Below are positions 1 to 11,787 of a stretch of DNA of 11,787 nucleotides, in pieces. A program made the translations under genes and the position numbers. The DNA comes from a virus. Its lineage: Duplodnaviria > Heunggongvirae > Uroviricota > Caudoviricetes. The stretch lies in the IMG/VR virus record IMGVR_UViG_648276671_000012; one strand, written 5' to 3'. The notes below the pieces were generated by a model. That model was given only the letters and a program-made list of their open reading frames with translations. It did no database searches and was not told where the DNA came from. Within the stretch, counting starts at the first letter, position 1, and each line of letters begins with the position of its first letter.

Positions 1-1672
1 CACCTGCGGCCTGCGCCCGGCGGCCCGTTCGTCCGGTGTTATCAGGGAATGTACGGCTGATCAGTTTTGCGCGCCGGATGCTGTCACCCTTAAACAGGTA
101 AATACGTTTACCAAGGCCATCACGACGGCAACGACGCCAGAATTTATAGGCATTATCAGTGACCCCGTCTTCACCGCCGGAGTCCACCGCCATTGCCATC
201 AGTCGCATTTGTTGAGAAGGATCGGAGGCCAGCGGCCAGCTTTTATGAAAAACATCCGTCAGCAGGACATCCCAGTCTTCCGGATAGCTGGCCGGATCAA
301 TTCGCTGGCTCTCCCCGTCGCAGTCACTGCGCAATGACTGCGTGATGTTGTAACGATCAATAATCCAGCGTTCGCCACGACTGCCATAGCCCGTTACCTG
401 AACCACAAAACGGCGATGACGTCCCGCCTGCACATCCACTGTCGCCACAAGGAAATTAATGCCATCCGGCACACTGCGGGAAGGAACTGGCTCTGCCCGC
501 TGCTCAAGCAGTTCACTTTTTCGTTGCTCCATGCTGGCACGAGGAAGATAAGGCAATCCCCAGTCGGTGTTGATAACCGCCCTGAGTGTTTCTTCGCTTC
601 CTGTCGCTTCATACTCCTGTTCTGCAGTCAGTAATTTGTAAACCAGTTGCGCCCAGGTCTGATACGCAGCAGCTGGCCCTTCCATCCAGAAACTGGCGAT
701 ACGGGAGCGGCGCGGTTCACCGGAAACGTTGCCGTTACGATCAATGACCTGACCTTCACGCAACCAGACTCCTGCACTATTGAGCTCACGCTTTTTCTCC
801 GCAGTGATAATGCCGCTGCAGTGCGGGCAAAGTAGATACGCCGCCTCACTGGCTTTAAAGGGATCCGGTTCATTACGGTAGCCGGTCATGGCATCCATGG
901 CTGGCTGAAAATATTCACCGCAGTGCGGACATGACCAGTACCAGCGGCGGCGGTCACCACGATTGTAAAGGGAAAGAATACCAGTCGTCGGTGGCGCTTC
1001 ATGAGGCGACTTACGTCGCCATTTGCTATCGCAGATGTCACGTCCCGGCGAGCTCTCCACCAGAGTCATCCCGGCGGACATAAATGTGGTGGTACGTTTT
1101 GAGGCCAGGGAGAAACCATCACCCTCGCTGTCGATATTCTCCGGAAAACGGTCGTAATCGGTTAAGGCGACAAACCGGTAATCCGACGACGACATAATGT
1201 TGACCGAGGGCCAACCAATTTTAAGGAACGAGCCATCCCTGAACGTCTTCTCATGGACATTATTGTCGTTACGACGTGGACTCATTCTTTTCTTTACCGC
1301 CGCACTGCTTCTGAACGTTCTGTCGAGGCGCTTTTTAGAATGCTCGCGGGCCTTATCTTCGGTCATCTGCACAACGAGCATGTCCGAAGGATCGCAAACG
1401 ATGGTATAGACAATCCATCCATCGATCAGACCAATGGTCTTCCCTGTTCGCGCAGGACCAACAAAAATCACCGCATCGTATTCACGCGATGCCAGGCAGT
1501 TCATGGGCTCAATGATGTAGGGTGTCAGTTCAGGATCCCATGGCACCGAGTTACCAGCCCCCTTGGGAACACGCATGAATTTTTTAACAGCCTCCGAAAT
1601 CGGCATGCGACGTGGTGGGGAAAATCCTGCCGATATGTCCCTTCCCAAATTTCGGGCTGATGAAAAACCCAT
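1..1672 (-). CDS. phage terminase large subunit (lambda gpA-like), N-terminal ~557 codons; 3' end lies beyond window start
   Basis: Manual minus-strand translation from ATG 1672..1670 (GGAGG SD about 5 nt upstream) is open to position 2: MGFSSARNLGRD..., Walker A VIFVGPARTGKT, zinc-finger-like WYWSCPHCGEYFQ and LCPHCSGIIT. Absent from the ORF track because the ORF is incomplete in the window. Sits directly downstream of the small-subunit gene. Confidence 0.8.
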   Translation of the reverse strand, partial: MGFSSARNLGRDISAGFSPPRRMPISEAVKKFMRVPKGAGNSVPWDPELTPYIIEPMNCLASREYDAVIFVGPARTGKTIGLIDGWIVYTIVCDPSDMLVVQMTEDKAREHSKKRLDRTFRSSAAVKKRMSPRRNDNNVHEKTFRDGSFLKIGWPSVNIMSSSDYRFVALTDYDRFPENIDSEGDGFSLASKRTTTFMSAGMTLVESSPGRDICDSKWRRKSPHEAPPTTGILSLYNRGDRRRWYWSCPHCGEYFQPAMDAMTGYRNEPDPFKASEAAYLLCPHCSGIITAEKKRELNSAGVWLREGQVIDRNGNVSGEPRRSRIASFWMEGPAAAYQTWAQLVYKLLTAEQEYEATGSEETLRAVINTDWGLPYLPRASMEQRKSELLEQRAEPVPSRSVPDGINFLVATVDVQAGRHRRFVVQVTGYGSRGERWIIDRYNITQSLRSDCDGESQRIDPASYPEDWDVLLTDVFHKSWPLASDPSQQMRLMAMAVDSGGEDGVTDNAYKFWRRCRRDGLGKRIYLFKGDSIRRAKLISRTFPDNTGRTGRRAQAAG

Positions 1673-1680
1673 TATTCCTC

Positions 1681-2238
1681 CTAGAGACTCTCTCCTTCCT
1701 CATCAGGAATTAATTCAGCAGCACAAGCCTCGTAGGATTTTTCCTGAAGAGTGTATCGCAGGTCATCAATTGCCTGCTGTACAACGCCGACGGCCTGAGG
1801 AGTCAGGGCGCAATCGCGTTCAAGAACATCCGGAATTGTCTCCAGAACCTGGACGACAGCCTTTCTCATGGACGAATAGACGATGACTACTTCATCAACG
1901 GGGATGAGTTTTCGCTGCTCCTTTTCCAGCTTGATCCTTTCATTTTCAGACTGGTACCAGTCCTTTCTCTCTTTCGGCTCCATACGGGATGGATCATGAA
2001 CAGAGTCTGCTGCCTCATGCTTCACACTAAACAGGGCTGGCCCGACATGCTGCAGGGCGTAAACGGGGTTCCCCCTGACAGTCGCAGCCACAGGAGTGTT
2101 GGCCGCGAGAAGCCGTTTTTTTACTGTGTCCCGGTGAAGCCCAAAGGCCTCAGCGATTTTAAAAACACTCCAGTAATAAGCATCACCGATCCCGCTCACA
2201 TTTGACATAAGCAACTCCATCTGGCAGGTGAAAATCAT
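1681..2238 (-). CDS. phage terminase small subunit (lambda Nu1-like, NohA-like)
   Basis: 185-aa ORF with N-terminal HTH-like segment (SVFKIAEAFGLHRDTVKKRL) and acidic C-terminus (AAELIPDEEGESL), resembling lambda Nu1. Lies between a cos-like site and the large terminase gene. True start may be the internal ATG at 2208..2206, which has a GGAG SD; the first ATG at 2238 lacks an obvious SD. Confidence 0.7.
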   Translation of the reverse strand: MIFTCQMELLMSNVSGIGDAYYWSVFKIAEAFGLHRDTVKKRLLAANTPVAATVRGNPVYALQHVGPALFSVKHEAADSVHDPSRMEPKERKDWYQSENERIKLEKEQRKLIPVDEVVIVYSSMRKAVVQVLETIPDVLERDCALTPQAVGVVQQAIDDLRYTLQEKSYEACAAELIPDEEGESL

Positions 2239-2387
2239 GTTTATTTATATATTTCAATTAATTGTAAACTGGTCTAATGACAGGGAGAAAAAAATATTGT
2301 ACAGGTAAAAAGAGAAATAACTTTTAATTATCAATAAATTACCAAACATGCTGCCGCCGCCATGGAAATGCAAAAACTAGCCTTTTT

Positions 2388-2407
2388 CCGCGACGCTCCC
2401 GCCCCGT
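2388..2407 (-). other. putative cosN (cohesive end site), lambda-like variant
   Basis: Minus strand reads ACG GGGCGGGAGCGT CGCGG, against lambda ACG GGGCGGCGACCT CGCGG as recalled (16 of 20 identical, both flanks conserved). It is a GC-rich island in AT-rich DNA about 170-190 bp upstream of the Nu1-like start, where cosB is expected. Confidence 0.5.
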
Positions 2408-2765
2408 GGCAGGGGCCCCCACCGGGAGGACCCGACAGCCTGACAGCCGTGACGAGCATCTGATACAGCGCTTTACATAATGGCATAGGAATAATTCAGA
2501 AGGACATCACAGCATGCCCACACAAATTAGTGTGAGTGTCCTGTTTCTTCCTACGCACAGGACTGACGAGCATGAGGGGAAAATACGCGAACCATAAATG
2601 CCTCATCTTCAGCAATGCAGCCGAACAGGACGATATTGTAAATTCACCTAATTACGAGGACATTGCAGTAGTTGAATTGCAGCTCTGTATTAGCCTGACA
2701 GTGACAGAATGCGATATTGACTCTGTCACAGGTGGAATAGTTTGAATGATTAGCAGTTATGGTGC

Positions 2766-2972
2766 TCAGTCAACCACCAGGGAATAATCCTTCGAATTCT
2801 TATCGTGCTTCACCAACGCTGCCTCAATTGCCCTGAATGCTTCCAGAAACACCTGATGTTCTATACATGCAATTACAACATCCGGGTAACTCATAGAAAT
2901 GGTGCTATTAAGCATATTTTTTACACGAATCAGATCCAACGAGAGTTCATCAGCAGATTGTTCTTTATTCAT
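2766..2972 (-). CDS. hypothetical small acidic protein (68 aa), moron between cos and ydfO-like gene
   Basis: ORF with GGAG SD 9 nt upstream of ATG (2972..2970). No recognisable motif. Occupies the position where I believe K-12 Qin has a small ORF between nohA and ydfO, but the sequence is not recognised. Confidence 0.4.
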
Positions 2973-3272
2973 TTTGTCGCTCCATGCGTTTGCTCGTCAT
3001 CTAGCGGTTAAAATATTACTTCAAATCTTTCTGCATAAAAGAGGAAAAGTATGAAAGTTTGAGTACATCGACCTTACATACATCTGTCGGTTGCATATCC
3101 CTCCTGGATGCCAGCAAGGCTCAACTTTGTTACGCAACCAACACTATTTATTGAAAACAGGCTTAATATTTGACATAAATCATCAACAAAACACAAAGAG
3201 GTCAGACCAGATTGAAACAATAAACACGATAATGCAAACTACGCGTCATCGTATCACATGGAAGGTTTACCA

Positions 3273-3683
3273 ATGGCTCAGGCTGCCATTTTTAAAGAAA
3301 TATTCGATCAAGTGCGTAAAGATTTAAACTGTGAATTATTTTATTCTGAGCTAAAACGTCACAATGTCTCACTTTATATTTACTATTTAGCCACAGATAA
3401 TATTCACATTGTGTTAGAAAACGACAACATAGTGTTAGTAAAAGGACTCAAAAAGGTTGTAAATGTTAAATTCTCCAGAAACAAACATCTTATAGAGACC
3501 TCCTATAATAAGTTGAAATCAAAAGAAATCACATTTCAACAATACAGGGAAAATCTTGCTAAAGCAGGAGTTTTCCGATGGGTTACAAATATCCATGAAC
3601 ACCAAAGATATTACTATACCTTTGATAACTCATTACTATTTACTGAAAGCATCCAGAAAACTACACAAATCTTACCACGCTAA
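3273..3683 (+). CDS. ydfO: DUF1398-family protein (YdfO-like), 136 aa
   Basis: ORF on the strand opposite the late operon; start chosen at ATG 3273 (GGAAGG SD 6 nt upstream) rather than the track ATG at 3258. Assignment rests mainly on synteny with K-12 Qin (nohA-ydfO-gnsB-ynfN-cspI) and matching length, not on recognised sequence. Confidence 0.55.
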
Positions 3684-3785
3684 ACCATAACGTCCGGCTT
3701 CTCTCACTCCTGAGCCGGACTGCATTGGTTTAATAAAAACCATCAACAATTGTGATTTAGATATTCGGAACCATTCAAATATAAC

Positions 3786-3809
3786 AAAACCCCGTAAAAA
3801 CGAGGTTTA
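3786..3809 (-). terminator. putative intrinsic terminator downstream of gns-like gene
   Basis: Minus-strand RNA CCUCGU-UUUU-ACGGGG hairpin (one G.U pair) followed by UUUUGUU. Confidence 0.4.
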
Positions 3810-3834
3810 TGGATAAATTTTATTATTGAATACA

Positions 3835-4007
3835 TCAGATTAAATTAATCTTGACATCATAGCTTTCAAGACCCGTCATTTTTTCCCGTGCGGTAAACTG
3901 AATACTGGTAACTTCTTTCCCGGTCTTTTTCTTAAGTTCAATAATTTTTTTGTTATATATTCAGAAATATCTGCTTCTGCTTTTGTTTTTAAGTCTTCAA
4001 TATTCAT
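3835..4007 (-). pseudogene. gnsB/gnsA-like gene disrupted by -1 frameshift in a homopolymer (A7 on coding strand, T7 on plus strand 3945..3951)
   Basis: Minus-strand translation from ATG 4007 gives MNIEDLKTKAEADISEYITKK and then goes out of frame to a stop at 3878..3876. The -1 frame continues IIELKKKTGKEVTSIQFTAREKMTGLESYDVKINLI to TGA at 3837..3835. Both halves resemble GnsA/GnsB (57 aa) as recalled; one extra A would restore a 57-aa ORF. Confidence 0.6.
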
Positions 4008-4179
4008 CATTTCCTCTTTTAGTCTGTTATGACTTTCCAGTTACACTGGTAAGTCGATTATATGGTGCAAACGTGTAAAAGATAAGATGAAACATCGCAA
4101 TAATCAACATACGATAGTCTAAATTTTACACAAACAGACAAAGAGAATTTTCCTGAATTATCAATGCAATAGCATCAAA

Positions 4180-4335
4180 TCAACTCAAGAGCCTTATTGC
4201 TGCTTCCAGAATTTCTTCTGAAGTAACATGCCGATCCGCGGCTACATAAATGACTTTATGATCTCCGGTCAGAGATGGAAACCCTGCGGCCATTACAGTA
4301 AGGTGTGTTTTTTCGCCATTTGGATATTCACGCAT
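4180..4335 (-). CDS. small hypothetical protein, 51 aa from internal ATG (possibly YnfN-like by position)
   Basis: Track ORF 4180..4371 is 63 aa; the ATG at 4335..4333 gives 51 aa (MREYPNGEKTHLTV...). Lies between the gns-like gene and cspI as ynfN does in K-12 Qin. Sequence not independently recognised. Confidence 0.45.
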   Translation of the reverse strand: MREYPNGEKTHLTVMAAGFPSLTGDHKVIYVAADRHVTSEEILEAAIRLLS

Positions 4336-4453
4336 GATGGTGTTAACTCCAGTCATCGCTGGCACTACCACTGCTGGTTCAGAGTTAAAAAAACTATGAT
4401 TTTTTTCATGATGTTACCGTAGTATGTGAGTATCCATCGAATAGACACCAAGC

Positions 4454-4474
4454 AAAAAAGCTCCCGAAGGAGCC
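4454..4474 (-). terminator. putative intrinsic terminator between cspI and the 51-aa ORF
   Basis: Minus-strand GCUCC-UUCG-GGAGC stem with tetraloop followed by U6; about 210 nt downstream of the cspI stop. Confidence 0.4.
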
Positions 4475-4680
4475 TTCATTTTCACTTTTTTAAATCCAAC
4501 GACAGACGGCTGGCATTTAAGTATTGTGAAATATTATCAAATGTAATCATCATTGATTTACAAAAGATACATTTTGCCCCGAAAGGATTCATGTCAGAAA
4601 CATCAAAAGATGATGTTCTATACTGGGAACCATGACAACACGGGCATCTAAAGTGAATATGGTTTGTAATATTGTCTACC

Positions 4681-4893
4681 TCAAAGCGCCACTACATGAA
4701 CAGCGGCAGGACCTTTAGGTCCGTTCTCAATACCAAATTCAACTTCCTGATTCTCAGTTAATGTTTTGAAATCGTTGCTCTGAATTGCTGAGAAATGGAC
4801 AAACACATCTTTGCTGCCATCTTTCGGCGTGATGAAACCAAAACCTTTTTCAGGGTTAAACCATTTCACTAAACCAGTCATTTTGTTAGACAT
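4681..4893 (-). CDS. cspI: cold-shock protein, CspA family (CspI-like), 70 aa
   Basis: [34 protein letters not shown]... with RNP1-like KGFGFI and RNP2-like VFVHF motifs. cspA-type SD (AAGG about 9 nt upstream of ATG 4893..4891) and a roughly 360-bp upstream intergenic region consistent with a long csp 5' UTR. Confidence 0.9.
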
Positions 4894-5255
4894 AATTATT
4901 ACCTTTTGAAGAAATTAGCCCTTGGGCAGAATGGTCCGAAAAAAAATATCAGAGAGAAAAACCAACAAGGAAATCTCAAGAGGTACAAATAATAAAATTA
5001 TAACAATGACTGCTTCAGATAAATTTGTAACAAACCAGAACACCATTAACGCATGATTAACCACCCATAGCAAGGATTACTTTTGTAAAGAAAAACACAG
5101 CAATGAAAGAATAGCTTTATTTATTAATAAAACGTGTCATTCTGATTAAGACCTTTTATCTTACCCTTAAGATTTCAGGAATTTTGACTCATGGAAGAGT
5201 CCTTTTTATTTAAATTTTACATTCAGCGATGTAAATGTTCCGATTTAATATTACC

Positions 5256-6279
<1,024 letters not shown>

Positions 6280-6283
<4 letters not shown>

Positions 6284-6591
6284 ATATATTTATGATGAGG
6301 ACGCTCGTGCTTATTGGCAGGATTTTCAATCTTAAAGGAGTACTGATGCTGCAGATAAGACTCAACTTTTTCTGACAATTTTTCTGCTACTTCCAGGAAG
6401 ACTTGCCGGACGCTCCTTCTGGCTGCTGCCTCATAAAACTCCAGCGCAGCTCCTTCAACACGGTCCATGGCGACATCCAGGCCAAAAATTTCACCGTCAA
6501 AGCGTTCTTTGTCCTGTAAGGCTACAGTTACCGTAACTTTATTCTCAAAATTACGGACTCCTTTCACAACCAGTTCATAGTCTTGAGTCAT
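6280..6591 (-). CDS. ydfR: DUF1327-family protein (YdfR-like), 103 aa, inserted between holin and endolysin
   Basis: ORF tightly packed in the lysis cassette: stop overlaps the endolysin start and its start is 5 nt after the holin stop. Assignment by synteny and length. Confidence 0.65.
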
Positions 6592-6595
6592 TGGA

Positions 6596-6811
6596 TTACT
6601 CTCCTCTCGCAGCCTTACGCCTGTCTTCTTTAATCTTGAAATAAAGATTTGTCAGATACGTCAGCAGGCCAAAAACCAGGCTACCCAGCACACCGATTGC
6701 AGCCCACTGTGACGGAGTTACTTTATCGAGTAACTGCAATGCCCAGAAACCAGCATTACCCGCCGATGTGCCATAGGCAACACCTGTTGTTAACTTATCC
6801 ATTGATTTCAT
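6596..6811 (-). CDS. essQ: phage 21 S-type pinholin with dual-start motif (M-K-S-M), 71 aa
   Basis: [71 protein letters not shown] closely resembles phage 21 S68/S71 as recalled. Two TMDs; GAGG SD 4-5 nt upstream of ATG 6811..6809. The track's 96-aa version (to 6886) is probably an artefactual N-terminal extension. Confidence 0.85.
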
Positions 6812-7030
6812 ATCCTCACCCCGATGTACACGGATGGTGCAATATGTTTGAAAAGATCGGAGTCTACGGGGTAGTTTTGACAGCACACGTTGTTCTCAAC
6901 GGCGCTAAAAAAACATACACATTAAAAATGTGGGTAATTATTTTGAAAGAAAGTCATATATAAAATAATAATACGAGAAATGTTTTCATATTTAGTGTAC
7001 TGTATACGGCCATTTATACAGGAAAAGCCT

Positions 7031-7201
7031 ATGTCAGAACGTAAAGACTCAAAATCACGCCGTAATTATCTCGTTAAATGTTCCTGCCCAAACTGCACCC
7101 AAGAGTCAGAACACAGTTTTTCAAGAGTACAAAAAGGTGCCCTTTTGATCTGCCCTCATTGCAACAAAGTATTCCAGACAAATCTTAAAGCTGTAGCCTG
7201 A
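7031..7201 (+). CDS. small zinc-ribbon protein, 56 aa (two CxxC pairs), strand opposite to late operon
   Basis: Internal ATG at 7031 with AGGA SD; CSCPNC...CPHC motif. Possible -35/-10 (TTGAAA, 17 bp, TAATAA) near 6943..6971. May correspond to the small protein YnfU of K-12 Qin, but this is recalled, not verified. Confidence 0.5.
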   Translation: MSERKDSKSRRNYLVKCSCPNCTQESEHSFSRVQKGALLICPHCNKVFQTNLKAVA

Positions 7202-7261
7202 TTGATTTTATTAGTAACAAGTATTTTTTATATTTTAATAATATATTTAAAGCAGATAATA

Positions 7262-7285
7262 AAAAACCCGCCTGAGCGGGTTTGA
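7262..7285. terminator. intrinsic terminator hairpin (AACCCGC-CTGA-GCGGGTT), strong on minus strand, weak on plus
   Basis: GC stem with tetraloop flanked by an A-run and a T-run. On the minus strand it is followed by U6 (downstream of cspB); on the plus strand it follows the zinc-ribbon ORF. Confidence 0.55.
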
Positions 7286-7564
7286 GATTGTGGTGCTTTT
7301 TGTGGGAGTCATCCACTTACGCACTTTGTTTTGCCATGCCAGCAGTTAGCTTCTGCTGTAAAACTATTCATGCAGCAAACCTGCACTTCACCACAATGGT
7401 TAGCATACTTTTCCTGATTAAGATTTTGCCAAATATGCTGGCCATTGTTTCATGTATTGGACCTCCTTACTTTTTATTAAAGAGATCCAATATTCACTAC
7501 TCTGTCCGTATCTCTACTCAGGCATCAGCCTTCTTCGTTATCGTATACAGACGAGCGATGAATT

Positions 7565-7780
7565 TTAATCAGTAATGATGACATTTACTGCTGCAGGACC
7601 TTTAGCACCACTCTCTATAGAGAAGGTAACCTTTTGACCTTCAAATAAGGTTCGATAATTATCATTCTGAATCGCAGAAAAATGCACAAACACATCTTTA
7701 CTACCATCAACAGGAGAAATAAAGCCGAAACCTTTATCAGCGTTAAACCATTTTACTAAACCAGTCATTTTATTTGACAT
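7565..7780 (-). CDS. cspB: cold-shock protein, CspA family (CspB-like), 71 aa
   Basis: [64 protein letters not shown]...; RNP1/RNP2 motifs. Sits between Q and the holin as cspB does in Qin. Confidence 0.9.
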
Positions 7781-8078
7781 TCTACATTCCTTAACTTGAG
7801 CCTTTCGGCATAAATGGTTTGCATAACAGAAACGACTTCGTACTTAATTGGAGAGACTCAAAGAAGGAATAAGTGAATAACACCTGAAATGAGAACTGCT
7901 TTAGTAAACTACTTCGTATATCGTCTGTTCTTCAAACCGAAGCAGTCATTAACTCATAGTTGAACATATGAAGCAATGTTTATTTTAGACATCCAGCCAC
8001 CTTCAACCCTATCAACAAAGTAGTTTTCTCCAGGAACGTGTGTATGGTGCACCAGGTTATCAGTATTAAGGAGTTTTT

Positions 8079-8284
8079 CTGTCCCCTAAAATGACAGGAA
8101 TTGCCAAAAACTTTGACTACAAAAGCAGCAAAGGTCTTATATTCCCATCCGATGGCGTATCGATGCCCAGCTTCACGTTTCAGCTCTCAATCTTCGAGAT
8201 GCAGAAGAAATTACCACAGGATTACGCGTGGAATTTTGCCGGATAAATGGTTCGCGTGGACCTTCAACTGCCAATGTTTATCCC
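8079..8284 (+). pseudogene. cspF/cspH-like cold-shock gene remnant: start codon changed to CTG, -1 frameshift near 8156, altered C-terminus
   Basis: Frame A from 8079: [26 protein letters not shown] (recalled CspF: [26 protein letters not shown]). The match then continues in another frame: [50 protein letters not shown] is intact at 8068..8073. Product reconstructed by hand across two frames. Confidence 0.6.
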
Positions 8285-8324
8285 GGGATGAGATTCAATA
8301 TCTCTATTGCCCCATTTAAAGCAC

Positions 8325-8350
8325 AAAAACCCGCTTATAAGCGGGTTTTC
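8325..8350. terminator. perfect palindromic terminator hairpin (AAAACCCGCTTA/TAAGCGGGTTTT); candidate tR' of the late promoter and terminator of the cspF-like gene
   Basis: 24-bp perfect palindrome 8326..8349 flanked by A/T runs, about 110 bp downstream of the Q stop on the minus strand. Confidence 0.55.
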
Positions 8351-8396
8351 TACTTTTTTCTAAACGTCGGATACACAAAGCCCATCGTTGAGAAAA

Positions 8397-8425
8397 TCTT
8401 ATCCATGTTTTTTGAAAAATGCAAA
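8397..8425 (-). promoter_or_regulatory. candidate late promoter PR' (with Q-utilisation region) immediately downstream of Q
   Basis: Minus strand TTGCAT (8425..8420), 17-bp spacer, TAAGAT (8402..8397). Location matches lambda-type PR' between Q and tR'. Hexamers are each 4 of 6 to consensus, so the call is positional. Confidence 0.35.
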
Positions 8426-8455
8426 CATCATGTCGCCATCTTCAGCAAAAATCAT

Positions 8456-9208
8456 TTATCTCGTCACCTTCCTCAATTGCGCTTCCGCGTATGCTTCTTC
8501 CTGCCAGCACTTTGTTACCAGTTTACCAATGACGTCCGCATACCCCTTATACCACTGATAATCGGTCAGGTCTGGTACCAGCTTCTGGACATGACGTCGT
8601 GCCAGCGTGGTCGGTAAACGACTAAACCGGTTTCCATTACAACGCCCACAAATCTTATATACCGGTACGCCATGAAAACGGGTTCTTTTTTCATCCAGAA
8701 CAATCCCTTTACCCTTACACCCTCTGCACGCTGTGCTGACTTCGCCCTTACCATGGCAATGCTGACATAGTTCCTTCACCCATTCTTCCTTGATTACAGA
8801 TTCCCCGCGTCTGTAGTGTTTCACCACTTCGCGCAATACATTATAAAATCCCGTACCTGAACAATGCTCACAGCGAGCCTTACTTGCCGCAGACCTGGAG
8901 TAATCAGCAAAGGCAAAACTCACGAGGTAAGGAATAATCTGTAACCGGATTTCTTCACTCAATTTGTTCAATGTCGGGTTATCCAGTGCCATCGCGTAAT
9001 TTAGCAGGCCTTCAATCGCAAACTGAGGGTCCTGAACACCAACTTTTGCCAGAAATAAGGCCAACCCAAGTGGTGCTTTCGACTGCACCATCCCCTGCGC
9101 TGCCATTACATCCGTAATTGTTAAACAACCGGTGCCTGTCGCTGGAGCGTCATCGCTCAATTTTGGAGATTTTGGGGAGTAATATTTTGGTAAGGCTTCA
9201 AGGTTCAT
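8456..9208 (-). CDS. quuQ: late-gene antitermination protein Q, 250 aa from internal ATG
   Basis: Track ORF 8456..9238 (260 aa); the ATG at 9208..9206 with GGAG SD gives 250 aa. Multiple Cys/His zinc-finger-like motifs ([31 protein letters not shown]). Located upstream of the PR'/tR' module and the lysis genes. Confidence 0.8.
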
Positions 9209-9221
9209 GCTCGTTCTCCAC

Positions 9222-10271
9222 TTACGCCAGTACGCCAATTGCCAGCGCGCGATCGATAAAACGAAATATCAGCTCCAGTTGGGAGCCATACTTCTCTTCA
9301 AATGCCACTGTATCCGTATGCAGCTCGTTGTGATGCTTTCTGCACAAAGGCAACACAAAGAGATCATGTGCTTTTGTTCCCATTCCGCCCTGCCCGTGAC
9401 CAATCAGATGATGCGGATCGTCGGCTGGCATACCGCAGCAAGCACACGGCTGTGTCTTAACCCAACGTGTGTATTTCTCCTTAACCCAGCGGCGACGTTT
9501 AGGCAGCTTCATGAAAGATTCCGGAGACTCTGGATCAACGGTGATGCTTACCACCGTCTTTTCCTGTGGTAGTTTTTGTTGCTGGTGGGCGTAAGGCAAC
9601 GGTGCAAGATTTTTTGTGCGTTGTTTCAATATGCTGGTGGCGGTCTGCTCTCCCGGTACGATGTCGCTCTCGCGGTACACCGAGCAGATTTTTTCCGCTG
9701 GTATTCCCAGCGAACGACGTAATACCGCTTCCGGTAGCGCGTCCGCCACCTGATTGCGGACCGCCCACCAGGATAATTCAGCCAGAGATAATTCACGTTC
9801 CTGCGTACCGCTTATTGCGTGACGGATGACGTCAATCACCCATGCTGTCAGATTTTGTTGAGCAAGCAGATCCAGTGATTCCGATGTCTGGTCACGCAGT
9901 TGGTTGTCGCAGTGCCAACACAACACCATTGCGCCGGTACCATAACGGTGAATGACTGTTTCAGAGTGATGGTAATCGCCATTAGGCCACTGGCAGGATG
10001 TAACATGACGTAATAGCCAGTCAGACAATGCGCCAACGCCGCCAGCAGCACGAATCACCCGTTCGTTACTAAAAAACGGCAGCAATGTTTTGTCTTCCGC
10101 CAGCGGCTGGCGAACGGCAGGAACGACTCCGGATGGCAGATTACGCATGCTTTTTGGTTCCGGTTCCACCAGCACTCGAGGATTATGAAATATCTGTATG
10201 GATTCACGGCCCGGCTTAAGGACCACCAGCCCAAGCTCAGGCACCAGAACAGGTCTAAGTAATACCCGCAC
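9222..10271 (-). CDS. ydfU: DUF968-family protein with C-terminal HNH (His-Me finger) nuclease-like motif (YdfU-like), 349 aa from GTG
   Basis: C-terminal CACCGMPADDPHHLIGHGQGG...HDLFVLPLCRKHHNELH fits a C-x2-C...D-x-HH...N...C-x2-HH-x3-H HNH pattern. A GTG start at 10271..10269, 1 nt after the stop of the upstream 92-aa ORF, gives 349 aa. The track's ATG at 10310 would overlap that ORF by 38 nt. Confidence 0.75.
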   Translation of the reverse strand: MRVLLRPVLVPELGLVVLKPGRESIQIFHNPRVLVEPEPKSMRNLPSGVVPAVRQPLAEDKTLLPFFSNERVIRAAGGVGALSDWLLRHVTSCQWPNGDYHHSETVIHRYGTGAMVLCWHCDNQLRDQTSESLDLLAQQNLTAWVIDVIRHAISGTQERELSLAELSWWAVRNQVADALPEAVLRRSLGIPAEKICSVYRESDIVPGEQTATSILKQRTKNLAPLPYAHQQQKLPQEKTVVSITVDPESPESFMKLPKRRRWVKEKYTRWVKTQPCACCGMPADDPHHLIGHGQGGMGTKAHDLFVLPLCRKHHNELHTDTVAFEEKYGSQLELIFRFIDRALAIGVLA

Positions 10272-10272
10272 G

Positions 10273-10551
10273 TTACCTCCAGATCCGTTGCTGGAAAGTG
10301 CGGGACGCACGTGGTGGGCGTTCGGAGTAAGGCAATCTGACTGAGATTATCCAGTGACGGTAGTCGAGGCTAAGGGCTTTCTTAACCTCGTATCCGCGCC
10401 TGCGGTAACACTGAATTATCCATTCAGCCTGCTCTTCAGTGCATGGAGGGTGTTGGAACCATTCAGACTTGAATGCGTGAGAATACCGCTCGTGCGTGCA
10501 GACAAGAACGGGCGAATTATCAGAATTGTAATATTTTACGTTGCGTGCCAT
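10273..10551 (-). CDS. hypothetical Cys/His-rich small protein (92 aa), translationally coupled to the DUF968/HNH gene
   Basis: ORF whose TAA stop is 1 nt from the GTG start of the ydfU-like gene (TAA-C-GTG). Contains C-T-H, PPC and QCY motifs. Function unknown. Confidence 0.5.
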   Translation of the reverse strand: MARNVKYYNSDNSPVLVCTHERYSHAFKSEWFQHPPCTEEQAEWIIQCYRRRGYEVKKALSLDYRHWIISVRLPYSERPPRASRTFQQRIWR

Positions 10552-10617
10552 CGGTTTTCTCCGGTGGCACGGTGTTACTCAGCGGGAGTTCAGCCCCGCG
10601 CAAGATTGTAGATGAGT

Positions 10618-10869
10618 TTATTCTTCTGCAAAAGCTGAAAAGCCTGCTTTTATTCCGATCTCTTTCAGTGCCTGTAATGAAGTGACAAACTCACCTTCGC
10701 GCAAGATAAATCCGTCCGTGACCCGAGCATCCACAAAATTAATTAACGCAGCCCCATTCTTTCGCAAACACAGAATGCGGTAATGACTAACAATGTTTCC
10801 ATTTTCAACGCACACAGCATAGAGGCCATCTTCACAAAAAATTTTACGCAGTTCTTCGATGTTCATCAT
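10618..10869 (-). CDS. hypothetical protein, 83 aa (Rem-like by position and length)
   Basis: ORF between the hok terminator and the 92-aa ORF. Same length and relative position as Rem of K-12 Qin as recalled; sequence not recognised. Confidence 0.5.
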   Translation of the reverse strand: MMNIEELRKIFCEDGLYAVCVENGNIVSHYRILCLRKNGAALINFVDARVTDGFILREGEFVTSLQALKEIGIKAGFSAFAEE

Positions 10870-10998
10870 CAGAATCCTTCCGGATAATTAGCTCTCCCCT
10901 TTAAGGGACCATCCCTCTTATCCCTGCGCGCTACTTAAGTATTTTTGATTCTATTCCGGCACCGTCCAGAACTTCAAACGCGTTGAAAATAAAAACAA

Positions 10999-11024
10999 AA
11001 ACCCGCCGAAGCGGGTTAAGTGCG
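10999..11024 (-). terminator. intrinsic terminator at 3' end of the hok transcript (ACCCGC-UUCG-GCGGGU + U-run on minus strand)
   Basis: Hairpin followed by UUUUGUUUUUAUUUU on the minus strand, about 70 nt downstream of the hok stop. A further 9-bp-stem hairpin (11057..11078) lies in the 3' UTR, consistent with an fbi-like fold-back element. Confidence 0.5.
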
Positions 11025-11085
11025 GGTGCGTTGAGGATGCCTGCCACATCAGAGGTGGCGAGGGATTTCTCCCTCGCCGGGTCTC

Positions 11086-11241
11086 TTACTCCTCAGGTTC
11101 GTAAGCTGTGAAGACAGCGACCTCCGTCTGGCCGGTTCGGATTCGTACCTCGCAGAGGTCTTTCCTCGTTACCAGTGCCGTCACTATGACGGTTAAACAG
11201 ATGACGATCAGGGCGATTAACATCGCCTTTTGCTGCTTCAT
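11086..11241 (-). CDS. hokD: Hok-family type I toxin (HokD/RelF-like), 51 aa
   Basis: MKQQKAMLIALIVICLTVIVTALVTRKDLCEVRIRTGQTEVAVFTAYEPEE: single TMD plus conserved Hok C-terminal motif. AAGGAG SD 8 nt upstream of ATG 11241..11239. Confidence 0.85.
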   Translation of the reverse strand: MKQQKAMLIALIVICLTVIVTALVTRKDLCEVRIRTGQTEVAVFTAYEPEE

Positions 11242-11298
11242 AGCCTGCTTCTCCTTGCCTTTCGGCACGTAAGAGGCTAACCTACATTTGCTAGACAT
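11086..11298 (-). CDS. mok-like in-frame upstream extension of hok (70 codons)
   Basis: In-frame extension MSSKCRLASYVPKGKEKQA + Hok, resembling the N-terminal extension of MokC as recalled (MLNTCRVPLTDRKVKEKRA + HokC). Conservation of the extension at protein level supports a mok-type regulatory reading frame. Confidence 0.45.
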   Translation of the reverse strand: MSSKCRLASYVPKGKEKQAMKQQKAMLIALIVICLTVIVTALVTRKDLCEVRIRTGQTEVAVFTAYEPEE

Positions 11299-11787
11299 AG
11301 ATTGGGCCTCAGATTAATGTTAAGCGTCTTGCAGGACGCGTAATGTTAACTGGGGCTTTTCTCTATCTGCCGTTGGTGGCATGCCCGAGGCAGATAGCCT
11401 CAAGCACCCGCTGCAATTCTACTTAACTCTTCTTTTCCCGCAAACCGTTTTTATCCAGCACAGCAAATAGCCGCATTAAGCCAATGTTGTTCATTGTGTT
11501 TACCGCCAGTATTCAATACAAATGACCGCCATGAATACCCCTACAAAAAGCGCACTTATATGTCCAAATATTAATGTCAAGACATCAACTTCCTCCATCT
11601 CCTCCGCTGTTGCGATGATAGGTATACATGATGCAAACAACCAGATTGCAACAAATAAAAACTGCAAATGTCTTTTTCATTATTCCCCCGACAATCAATG
11701 AGTAATAACATTTAAACATAGATTGACATAATCAGACATAAAAATAATCTAGGCTGCACATTTTGCTTACATCGTGTTATAGGGAAG

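What the first reader, a model, noticed from the sequence alone, without database searches (positions are those of the whole stretch)
10990..11480. Apparently intact hok/mok type I toxin locus with structured leader and 3' fold-back hairpins, and no relBE upstream
Hok (51 aa) is preceded in frame by a mok-like 19-codon extension that resembles MokC. The 5' leader contains a 9-bp inverted repeat (CTATCTGCC / GGCAGATAG, 11363..11397) and the 3' UTR has strong hairpins plus a terminator, as expected for tac/fbi-regulated hok mRNAs. In K-12 Qin, as I recall, hokD sits downstream of relBE and lacks its own regulatory elements; here no RelE/RelB-sized ORF exists in the remaining ~500 bp, so this may be an autonomous, possibly active hok/sok-type module. 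An antisense Sok RNA would be expected on the plus strand around 11290..11360; I could not identify its promoter or terminator convincingly.
Basis: partly seen in the sequence, partly recalled or inferred. Interest (0 to 1): 0.5.

Follow-up and report, generated by a model that had tools for sequence, protein, structure and literature searches.

The report
Intact prophage hok/sok toxin-antitoxin locus
This is a complete but ordinary copy of the well-known hok/sok RNA-controlled killer gene that lambda-like prophages of E. coli carry; the laboratory strain K-12 is the odd one, because there a relBE-carrying transposon has split the locus.

Summary
Window 10990-11450 (minus strand) holds a full hok/mok/sok type I toxin-antitoxin locus. 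The 51-aa Hok is nucleotide-identical to K-12 hokD. An in-frame 19-codon mok extension precedes it. The leader matches Rfam RF01794 (117.6 bits). The 5' tac and 3' fbi elements pair, with covariation support, and a terminator follows. No relBE is present.

Its -35 is TTGCCT (11255-11260) and its -10 is TAACCT (11278-11283). The RNA runs from about 11290 to 11366.

The locus is about 94% identical to hokW-sokW of Sakai prophage 5, which has been shown experimentally to work as a type I TA system. Isolated phages and more than 1000 E. coli genomes carry the same locus. It is therefore already known and of low interest.

Two by-products are more interesting:
- K-12's relBE-hokD arrangement comes from a 3.3-kb IS1202-family transposon carrying flxA-ydfV-relBE. 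Its cargo-side (right, relE) end lies 13 nt upstream of the hok ATG in three different hok subfamilies. Window 11240-11254 is its empty target.
- The 23 nt that Sok's 5' tail recognises are hypervariable among otherwise near-identical copies.

The parts
11416..11444 (-). Predicted hok promoter: -35 TTTGCG (11444-11439), 17-nt spacer, -10 TAGAAT (11421-11416), then 6 nt to the G at 11409.
   Evidence: Read from the sequence. A TAGAAT or TATAAT hexamer sits at this fixed distance in nearly all of 62 distinct upstream variants, even where the sequence further upstream is unrelated. The consensus scan did not call it because the -35 matches only 3 of 6.
10992..11409 (-). Predicted full-length hok/mok mRNA, about 414-418 nt. 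The 5' end is set by homology and the 3' end lies in the T-run after the terminator.
   Evidence: The Rfam model starts at 11409. The R1-type control hit starts at the corresponding GGCGCTT. The fold has z = -6.1.
11402..11409 (-). tac element (GGGUGCUU).
   Evidence: It pairs with fbi in the minimum-free-energy fold and in the consensus structure. It is complementary to ucb.
11363..11397 (-).
   Evidence: Compensatory changes occur at alignment pairs 15:47 and 21:41.
11352..11358 (-). ucb (AAGCCCC), the anti-SD box that sequesters the mok SD in the closed form.
11273..11310 (-). SDmok (GAGGC, 11310-11306) to dcb (GCCUC, 11277-11273) hairpin. This is the Sok target; its loop and upper stem contain the mok AUG at 11298.
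   Evidence: Third hairpin of the Rfam model. The hairpin is kept in all 34 distinct alleles tested, at -9.6 to -16 kcal/mol.
11086..11298 (-). mok reading frame, 70 codons, in frame with hok (MokC/MokW-like).
   Evidence: Relatives in phages are annotated 'MokW protein'.
11086..11241 (-). hok CDS, 51 aa. The protein and DNA are identical to K-12 HokD.
11057..11078 (-). 3'-UTR hairpin GGCGAGGGAGAAAUCCCUCGCC. It is the likely protective end of the 3'-trimmed mRNA.
   Evidence: Covariation occurs at pair 346:358, GC to AU in 16 sequences.
11024..11036 (-). fbi element (CCUCAACGCACCC), which pairs with tac.
   Evidence: Helix 1 has 11 pairs, 99.4% of cells paired, and GC to AU at 12:393 in 5 sequences.
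10990..11017 (-). Intrinsic terminator: stem 11017-11000 followed by a T-run.
11255..11283 (+). Sok promoter: -35 TTGCCT (11255-11260), 17-nt spacer, -10 TAACCT (11278-11283).
   Evidence: The sokW probe YO-597 is 30/30 identical to window 11254-11283. The sokW 'promoter-less' primers replace exactly this -10 (PMC8621323). The -10 A2 and T6 positions, complementary to mRNA T131 and A127, are invariant in 86 sequences. The consensus scan missed it because it matches only 7 of 12.
11290..11366 (+). Predicted Sok antisense RNA, about 75 nt. It has a roughly 14-nt single-stranded 5' tail, a long hairpin (11304 to about 11359) and a U-rich tail.
   Evidence: The fold has z = -5.6. Both ends are inferred by homology and were not mapped.
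11283..11305 (.). Hypervariable segment. It covers the target of the Sok 5' tail, mok codons 1-5 and the Sok start region.
   Evidence: Mean column entropy is 0.655 bits here against 0.015 in the hok CDS. There are 15 alleles in 60 close copies. The window's allele has no exact match in 5426 complete E. coli genomes.
11240..11254 (-). GGAGAAGCAGGCTAT: the hok SD through the 'AT' of the start codon. Here it is a single copy. In K-12-type genomes it is the 15-bp target duplication that flanks the relBE transposon.
11100..11103 (-). UACG motif at the Tyr47 codon. In K-12 hokD this is a TadA A-to-I editing site that recodes Tyr to Cys.
   Evidence: Position. Editing of hokD at 6% is reported in PMC12214031.

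Best explanation
This is an intact hokD/hokW-type hok/mok/sok type I toxin-antitoxin cassette in the early-right (nin/Q-proximal) region of a Qin-like lambdoid prophage of E. coli.

How it most likely works:
1. A weak promoter makes a stable mRNA of about 415 nt. Its 5' tac pairs with the 3' fbi, so the mok SD is masked by ucb and neither ribosomes nor Sok can enter. This step is predicted here and has covariation support.
2. Slow 3' trimming removes fbi. tac then pairs with ucb, and the mok SD moves into the SDmok/dcb hairpin. This step is inferred from plasmid R1; the complementarity is present here.
3. A Sok RNA of about 75 nt is made from the opposite strand. Its 5' tail binds this hairpin, blocks mok translation and therefore the coupled hok translation, and marks the duplex for RNase III. 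This step is inferred, and was shown for the 94%-identical hokW-sokW.
4. When Sok synthesis stops, through loss of the prophage or its induction, Hok is made, inserts into the inner membrane and kills or lyses the cell.

Because hok is co-oriented with Q and the lysis genes, antiterminated early-right transcription on induction would read into the Sok promoter head-on. That may be what removes Sok. This last point is my inference.
For: Toxin:
- Pfam HOK_GEF scores 82.9 bits.
- The DNA is identical to K-12 hokD.
- HokD counts as toxic in a recent survey (10.1101/2025.08.07.668861).

Leader and mRNA structure:
- Rfam RF01794 scores 117.6 bits against a threshold of 59, over the full model.
- tac/fbi pairing appears in the minimum-free-energy fold, z = -6.1.
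- It also appears in the RNAalifold consensus of 86 distinct homologues.
- 99.0% of cells are paired, against 41-46% when partners are slid. 16 pairs carry double-sided changes, against 6.2 +/- 1.6 in shuffles.
- All named elements were located.

Sok:
- The promoter hexamers are identical to those of sokW, whose -10 was validated by mutation, and sokW RNA was detected by northern blot (PMC8621323).
- The Sok fold has z = -5.6.

Distribution:
- The same locus occurs in isolated phages, annotated as MokW/HokD.
- 77 of 80 sampled viral contigs have a contiguous leader.
- 1061 of 5426 E. coli genomes cover at least 80% of window 10900-11787.
Against: - There are no expression data for this copy.
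- Both promoters are weak by consensus, and the scan did not call them.
- After in-silico 3' trimming, the open tac-ucb conformation is 5.4-7.1 kcal/mol above the minimum free energy, because a 9-bp local 5' hairpin competes. The R1-type control switches at 0 kcal/mol. The functional hokW shares these stems, so this does not argue strongly against activity.
- Chromosomal hokA, hokB and hokC loci were reported not to mediate post-segregational killing (citing Pedersen and Gerdes 1999).
- The tac-ucb and SDmok-dcb pairs are invariant, so covariation says nothing about them.
Confidence: 0.9

Rival explanations
1. The locus looks intact but is functionally silent. Like other chromosomal hok loci, its mRNA would never be activated, so it would be a passenger without killing activity.
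For: The trimmed mRNA stays in the closed fold in silico, at +5.4 to +7.1 kcal/mol for the open form. Chromosomal hokA, hokB and hokC were reported not to give post-segregational killing or rifampicin activation. Both promoters are weak.
Against: The hok CDS is almost invariant among 60 copies, with entropy 0.015. All regulatory pairings are kept, some with compensatory changes. The 94%-identical hokW-sokW produces toxin on prophage induction and doubles phage release (PMC8621323). HokD is toxic when expressed.
Confidence: 0.1
2. The toxin gene is real but no Sok is made from this copy. Control would rest on mRNA folding alone, or on Sok supplied in trans by another prophage copy.
For: The -35/-10 pair matches only 7 of 12 consensus positions and was not called by the scan. 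E. coli genomes carry a median of 2 and up to 9 related places.
Against: The hexamers and spacer are identical to those of the expressed sokW. The target segment is hypervariable and the window's allele is unique, so a trans Sok would be mismatched in the recognition tail.
Confidence: 0.05
3. This is the K-12-type hokD, the promoter-less third gene of the relBE operon.
For: The hok coding sequence is identical to K-12 hokD, and the same neighbours rem, ydfU and ydfT are present.
Against: No relB or relE is in the window. Homology to K-12 breaks 14 nt upstream of the ATG. Upstream of that point the window carries the complete leader.
Confidence: 0.01

Closest known systems
hokW-sokW of Sakai prophage 5 / phage VT2-Sakai (E. 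coli O157:H7)
   Same: The whole mRNA is about 94% identical in nucleotides. The tac, ucb, dcb, fbi and Sok promoter sequences are identical. It also has a 70-codon in-frame mok and sits in a lambdoid prophage. Experiments showed it to be a type I TA system (PMC8621323).
   Different: The Hok C-terminus differs (VFTAYEPEE here, VFVDYESEK in HokW). The Sok-target allele differs (CCCAAUCUAUGUCUAGCAAAUG here, CUCAAUCCAUGCUGAACACAUG in hokW). The window has a different, canonical terminator.
hokD (relF) of E. coli K-12 Qin
   Same: The coding sequence, SD, 3' UTR and downstream genes (rem, ydfU, ydfT) are identical.
   Different: K-12 lacks the promoter, tac, ucb, mok and Sok, and hokD follows relBE. 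In K-12-type genomes that are less deleted, the missing leader lies 3.3 kb away on the other side of a transposon.
hokC/mokC/sokC (gef) of E. coli
   Same: The architecture is the same, including the in-frame Mok extension. The mRNA is about 75% identical in nucleotides.
   Different: It is a core-chromosome locus. It lacks the extension of roughly 18-22 nt in the Sok hairpin.
hok/sok (parB) of plasmid R1
   Same: The element order is the same, and both the R1-type and the window leaders hit RF01794. The Sok promoter is in the same position (TTGCGC-17-TATCCT in R1, TTGCCT-17-TAACCT here).
   Different: Hok is only 42% identical. In R1, mok is in a different frame from hok (my knowledge). The R1 trimmed mRNA switches fold in silico, whereas the window's needs +5 to +7 kcal/mol.

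Membership tests
hok/mok/sok type I toxin-antitoxin loci | A Hok/Gef-family membrane toxin ORF of about 50 aa. | tested here: met
   PF01848 scores 82.9 bits against a cut-off of 22. The sequence is identical to HokD.
hok/mok/sok type I toxin-antitoxin loci | The leader RNA fits the family covariance model (tac stem, Sok-complementary hairpin, SDmok/dcb hairpin). | tested here: met
   RF01794 scores 117.6 bits against 59, over model positions 1-157.
hok/mok/sok type I toxin-antitoxin loci | A mok reading frame with its own SD that starts in the leader and overlaps hok. | tested here: met
   GAGG lies 8 nt before the ATG at 11298. The ORF is open for 70 codons. Translational coupling itself cannot be tested here.
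hok/mok/sok type I toxin-antitoxin loci | Long-range 5' tac / 3' fbi pairing in the full-length mRNA. | tested here: met
   It appears in the minimum-free-energy fold and in the consensus structure. The helix has 11 pairs, 99.4% paired, one compensatory and three one-sided variable pairs.
hok/mok/sok type I toxin-antitoxin loci | Refolding of the 3'-trimmed mRNA to tac/ucb plus SDmok/dcb. | tested here: inconclusive
   The complementarity is perfect but invariant. The open fold is 5.4-7.1 kcal/mol above the minimum free energy, whereas the R1-type control switches.
hok/mok/sok type I toxin-antitoxin loci | A cis-antisense Sok gene with a promoter, a 5' single-stranded tail and a terminator hairpin. 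| tested here: met
   Met at the sequence level. The hexamers are identical to the validated sokW promoter and the fold has z = -5.6. Transcription was not tested.
hok/mok/sok type I toxin-antitoxin loci | Unstable Sok, stable hok mRNA, RNase III cleavage, and killing when Sok is lost. | not testable with these tools
   The only evidence comes from the homologue hokW-sokW (PMC8621323).
K-12 relBE-hokD (relBEF) arrangement | relE ends about 70 bp upstream of hokD, and the hok leader is absent. | tested here: not met
hokW-sokW subgroup (lambdoid-prophage hok cassettes) | More than 90% nucleotide identity over the mRNA, the extended Sok hairpin, and a location in a lambdoid prophage upstream of Q. 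| tested here: met

The most novel reading that the evidence does not exclude
The window's hok SD/start region (11240-11254) is the unoccupied target of a 3.3-kb IS1202-family 'transporter' insertion sequence. Its cargo is flxA-ydfV-relB-relE.

The element appears to insert specifically into hok loci, with its cargo-side (right, relE) end 13 nt upstream of the hok ATG, always co-oriented with hok. Insertion cuts hok off from mok and Sok control and places it behind relBE. If so, the textbook relBE-hokD ('relBEF') operon of K-12 is the product of a TA-carrying transposon that targets another TA system.

I found no description of this in the searchable literature, but I could not consult ISfinder or Pedersen and Gerdes 1999.

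A second, weaker novel reading is that the 23-nt hypervariable Sok-target segment defines specificity alleles that keep co-resident prophage hok/sok copies orthogonal.
Probability: 0.7. Interest if true: 0.6.

Novelty: already known. Interest (0 to 1): 0.25.

Why it matters
The locus itself matters little. It is one more copy of a described prophage addiction and lysis-assist module, and RefSeq-type annotation already names the toxin, although it leaves mok, Sok and the leader unannotated.

It is useful as the 'empty site' reference. It shows what K-12 hokD looked like before the relBE element arrived. That led to the observation that this element sits at the same nucleotide position in prophage, IncI-plasmid and IncF-plasmid hok genes.

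If the targeting is real and unreported, it would have three consequences:
- It would give a target for a subgroup of IS1202-family elements whose targets are unknown.
- It would be an example of one addiction module displacing the control of another.
- It would give an origin for a classical E. coli operon.

The hypervariable Sok-recognition segment suggests a testable system of antitoxin specificity groups among prophages.

Tried and rejected
- The consensus promoter/terminator scan found neither the hok nor the Sok promoter, nor the Sok terminator. I placed them by homology and conservation instead.
- I first read the 16-bp overlap between the two K-12-type junctions as an integrase att core, because ydfW was once called intK. 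I rejected this. The ends are TGT...ACA with 19/26 terminal inverted repeats, the adjacent gene is an IS1202-like/ISNCY transposase, and the repeat is a 15-bp target duplication.
- I considered that hok might be cargo of that element. I rejected this. The element is 99.8% identical across contexts while the flanking Hok proteins belong to three subfamilies, and each site has its own duplication.
- I expected the minimum-free-energy fold of the 3'-trimmed mRNA to show the tac-ucb switch. It did not, although it did in the R1-type control. I kept this as a caveat.
- The Rfam 'sok' hit lies on the hok-sense strand, and it does so in the R1-type control too. It therefore marks the leader, not the strand that encodes Sok.
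- Literature searches for ISEsa1 or IS1202 with hok or relBE, and for ydfW/flxA, found no description of the element.
- I did not use the large protein searches or structure prediction, because the family assignment was already unambiguous.

Full report
**Context.** The window is the late/early-right part of a Qin-like lambdoid prophage of E. coli. Positions 1-11428 are 99.3% identical to E. coli EC43. There the genes are annotated as terminase, gnsB, ynfN, cspI, rzpQ, rrrQ, ydfR, essD, cspB, ydfT (Q antiterminator), ydfU, rem and hokD, all on the strand that is minus in the window.

**Observation.** The 70-aa ORF is 11298..11086 (-) and the 51-aa Hok is 11241..11086.
- The hok coding DNA is 156/156 identical to K-12 hokD. 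It scores 82.9 bits on Pfam HOK_GEF against a cut-off of 22.
- The 19-codon extension is in frame and resembles MokC.
- RelB and RelE have no match in the window.

**Anatomy.** Rfam RF01794 matches 11409..11236 (-) over its whole length, at 117.6 bits against a threshold of 59, E = 7e-27. The model ends on the hok AUG, and it hits the sense strand in an R1-type control too. It therefore describes the hok leader rather than the Sok strand.

The elements map as follows:

| Element | Window coordinates (-) |
|---|---|
| tac | 11409-11402 |
| first hairpin | 11397-11363 |
| ucb | 11358-11352 |
| SDmok | 11310-11306 |
| mok AUG | 11298 |
| dcb | 11277-11273 |
| hok SD | about 11254-11250 |
| hok AUG | 11241 |
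| 3' hairpin | 11078-11057 |
| fbi | 11036-11024 |
| terminator | 11017-11000 |

The 414-nt transcript folds with tac paired to fbi, at -169.5 kcal/mol and z = -6.1.

**Comparative support.** I collected 133 loci that encode relatives of this Hok. I aligned the window with 85 distinct full-length homologues of 70-98% identity.
- RNAalifold recovers the tac/fbi helix and the leader hairpins.
- On that structure 99.0% of cells are paired, against 41-46% when partners are slid.
- 16 pairs show changes on both sides, against 6.2 +/- 1.6 in shuffles (0/500).
- The alternative tac/ucb and SDmok/dcb pairs are invariant. That is uninformative, but it is expected for segments that must pair with two partners.

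**Sok.** The plus strand carries TTGCCT (11255-11260), a 17-nt spacer, TAACCT (11278-11283), and a G at 11290.
- The region 11290-11372 folds into a 5' tail of about 14 nt, a long hairpin and a U-rich tail, z = -5.6.
- The scan missed the promoter because it matches only 7 of 12 consensus positions.
- hokW-sokW of Sakai prophage 5 was shown to be a type I TA system, with sokW detected by northern blot (PMC8621323).
- Its probe YO-597 is 30/30 identical to window 11254-11283.
- Its 'promoter-less' primers replace exactly the TAACCT hexamer.
- The VT2-Sakai locus aligns with the window at about 94% over the whole mRNA.

**Promoter of hok.** TTTGCG-17-TAGAAT ends 6 nt before 11409. The -10 sits at this distance in nearly all of 62 distinct upstream variants, although the sequence further upstream falls into several unrelated families. 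The cassette is therefore a mosaic module whose left boundary lies near -25 to -45.

**How common.** The locus is widespread.
- 77 of 80 sampled viral contigs with this Hok have the contiguous leader.
- 74 phage records hold at least 80% of the locus. They include mEp460, HannyBb and Stx phages, annotated MokW, HokD or 'host killer'.
- 1061 of 5426 complete E. coli genomes cover at least 80% of window 10900-11787.

So the intact form is the norm, and it has been described.

**Caveat on activation.** With fbi removed, the R1-type mRNA switches to the tac-ucb fold (ddG 0-0.9 kcal/mol). In the window's mRNA the open fold is 5.4-7.1 kcal/mol above the minimum free energy, because GCUUGAGGC pairs locally with GCCUCGGGC. 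That local hairpin resembles the metastable hairpin described for R1 (PMC9841398). hokW has the same stems and is functional, so I treat this as a limit of the calculation rather than as evidence of inactivity.

**Hypervariable Sok target.** Among 60 distinct copies at least 93% identical to the window, column entropy is 0.655 bits in mRNA positions 105-127 (window 11305-11283). It is 0.015 in the hok CDS and 0.02-0.24 in the other non-coding parts.
- There are 15 alleles in these 60 copies.
- All 34 distinct versions tested, including more distant relatives, keep a hairpin with the GAGGC/GCCUC base.
- EC43 shares a 99.3%-identical backbone but carries a different allele.
- The window's allele has no exact match in 5426 genomes; the best is 58/60.
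- In the few genomes with several copies, 8 of 9 sets differ.

This fits diversification of Sok/hok recognition, but it is untested.

**Why K-12 differs.** In K-12-type genomes, homology to the window stops 14 nt upstream of the hok ATG.
- In EC590 the missing leader lies 3,274 bp away.
- The intervening element has TGT...ACA ends and 19/26 terminal inverted repeats.
- It is flanked by a 15-bp direct repeat, GGAGAAGCAGGCTAT, which is single-copy in the window.
- It carries an IS1202-like (ISEsa1-family, ISNCY) transposase, ydfW, flxA, ydfV, relB and relE.
- These ends and repeat lengths fit the IS1202 family as described in PMC10132070.
- K-12 itself has lost the transposase end through a further deletion.

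**The element seems to target hok.** Copies 99.8% identical, with an intact 446-aa transposase, occur on plasmids.
- On an IncI plasmid of Salmonella the element sits in a pndA-type hok locus, with the repeat TGGAGGGGCTATGAT.
- On an IncF plasmid of Enterobacter it sits in an R1/F-type hok locus, with the repeat GGAGAAGAAGGCCA.
- Rfam sok hits abut its left end on the Salmonella IncI plasmid (L141) and in E. coli EC590 (L138). On the Enterobacter IncF plasmid (L142) an ISKpn8 copy separates the leader hit from the element.

I then scanned metagenome and viral contigs for the right end. This gave 158 junctions with enough flanking sequence.
- 118 are followed directly by a hok SD, ATG and Hok CDS.
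- These comprise 14 distinct 20-nt flanks from three Hok subfamilies.
- The ATG is 13 nt away in 113 of the 118.
- 12 more are short hokD flanks.
- In 12, an IS481-like IS occupies the same GGAG.
- In 2, a second copy of the element follows the 15-bp target.
- 4 are deletions into hokD.
- About 10 are unrelated sequence.
- Where both ends were present, the 15-bp repeat was perfect in 49 hokD-type loci.

Selection for hok inactivation could add to the bias. It would not explain the single-nucleotide precision.

I found no paper describing this element. The recent literature speaks only of 'genomic rearrangements' at hokD (PMC12214031).

**Verdict.** Interest in the locus itself is low. The transposon and the hypervariable Sok target are the leads worth following.

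Noticed in passing
L138:4522-7795 (E. coli EC590); L141:2501-5801 (Salmonella IncI plasmid); L142:2501-5801 (Enterobacter IncF plasmid); empty site = window 11240-11254: A 3.27-3.30 kb IS1202-like (ISEsa1-family) transporter IS carries flxA, ydfV, relB and relE. It has TGT..ACA ends, 19/26 inverted repeats and a 14-15 bp target duplication. Its relE-side (right) end lies 13 nt upstream of the hok ATG in hokD-, pndA- and R1/F-type hok loci. This explains K-12's relBE-hokD arrangement.
   Followed up: partly
L134:392-1487; also next to the relBE element in 12 metagenome or viral contigs (e.g. L145, L143, L192): A 1,096-bp IS481-like IS (346-aa transposase, ends TGTATGGG..CTTACACA) is inserted in the same hok SD, with a 5-bp GGAGA repeat in L134. 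It is a second IS type found repeatedly at this spot.
   Followed up: partly
window 11283-11305: The segment recognised by the Sok 5' tail is about 40 times more variable than the hok CDS among near-identical copies. The window's allele has no exact match in 5426 complete E. coli genomes.
   Followed up: partly
L303; L209 and L217: L303 joins a pndA-type hok leader, the relBE element and a hokD CDS, which looks like recombination between two occupied hok loci. L209 and L217 show two copies of the element in tandem, separated by the 15-bp target.
   Followed up: no
window 11500-11719 (-): Relatives encode a small two-helix membrane ORF of 59 aa (MKNALQFLFVAFWLF...IEYWR) upstream of hok. Here one extra base after codon 3-4 shifts its frame, leaving a 55-aa ORF from a TTG start. 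It has no Pfam family.
   Followed up: partly
window 11311-11351 (-) / Sok hairpin: This subgroup's Sok hairpin carries an extension of about 16-22 nt (GCGUCCUGCAAGACGC and flanks) relative to the Rfam consensus and to hokC. Some prophage alleles (e.g. L126) lack it.
   Followed up: no
window 11100-11103 (-): A UACG motif sits at Hok Tyr47. In K-12 hokD this site is reported to undergo TadA A-to-I editing (Tyr to Cys, 6%) (PMC12214031).
   Followed up: no
window 7518-7941 (-) and 4654-5039 (-): Two Rfam cspA thermoregulator hits (158.5 and 112.8 bits) cover the 5' UTR and start of the prophage cold-shock genes cspB and cspI.
   Followed up: no
window about 11428; upstream flanks of 62 hok loci: Homology between prophages breaks just upstream of the hok -10. 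At least six unrelated sequences flank the same cassette, as expected for a moron-like mobile module about 450 bp long.
   Followed up: no
L138:4351-4522: In relBE-occupied prophages the detached hok leader, with a slightly altered Sok -35, persists as an orphan 3.3 kb upstream of hokD and still scores 104 bits on RF01794. K-12 has deleted it.
   Followed up: no
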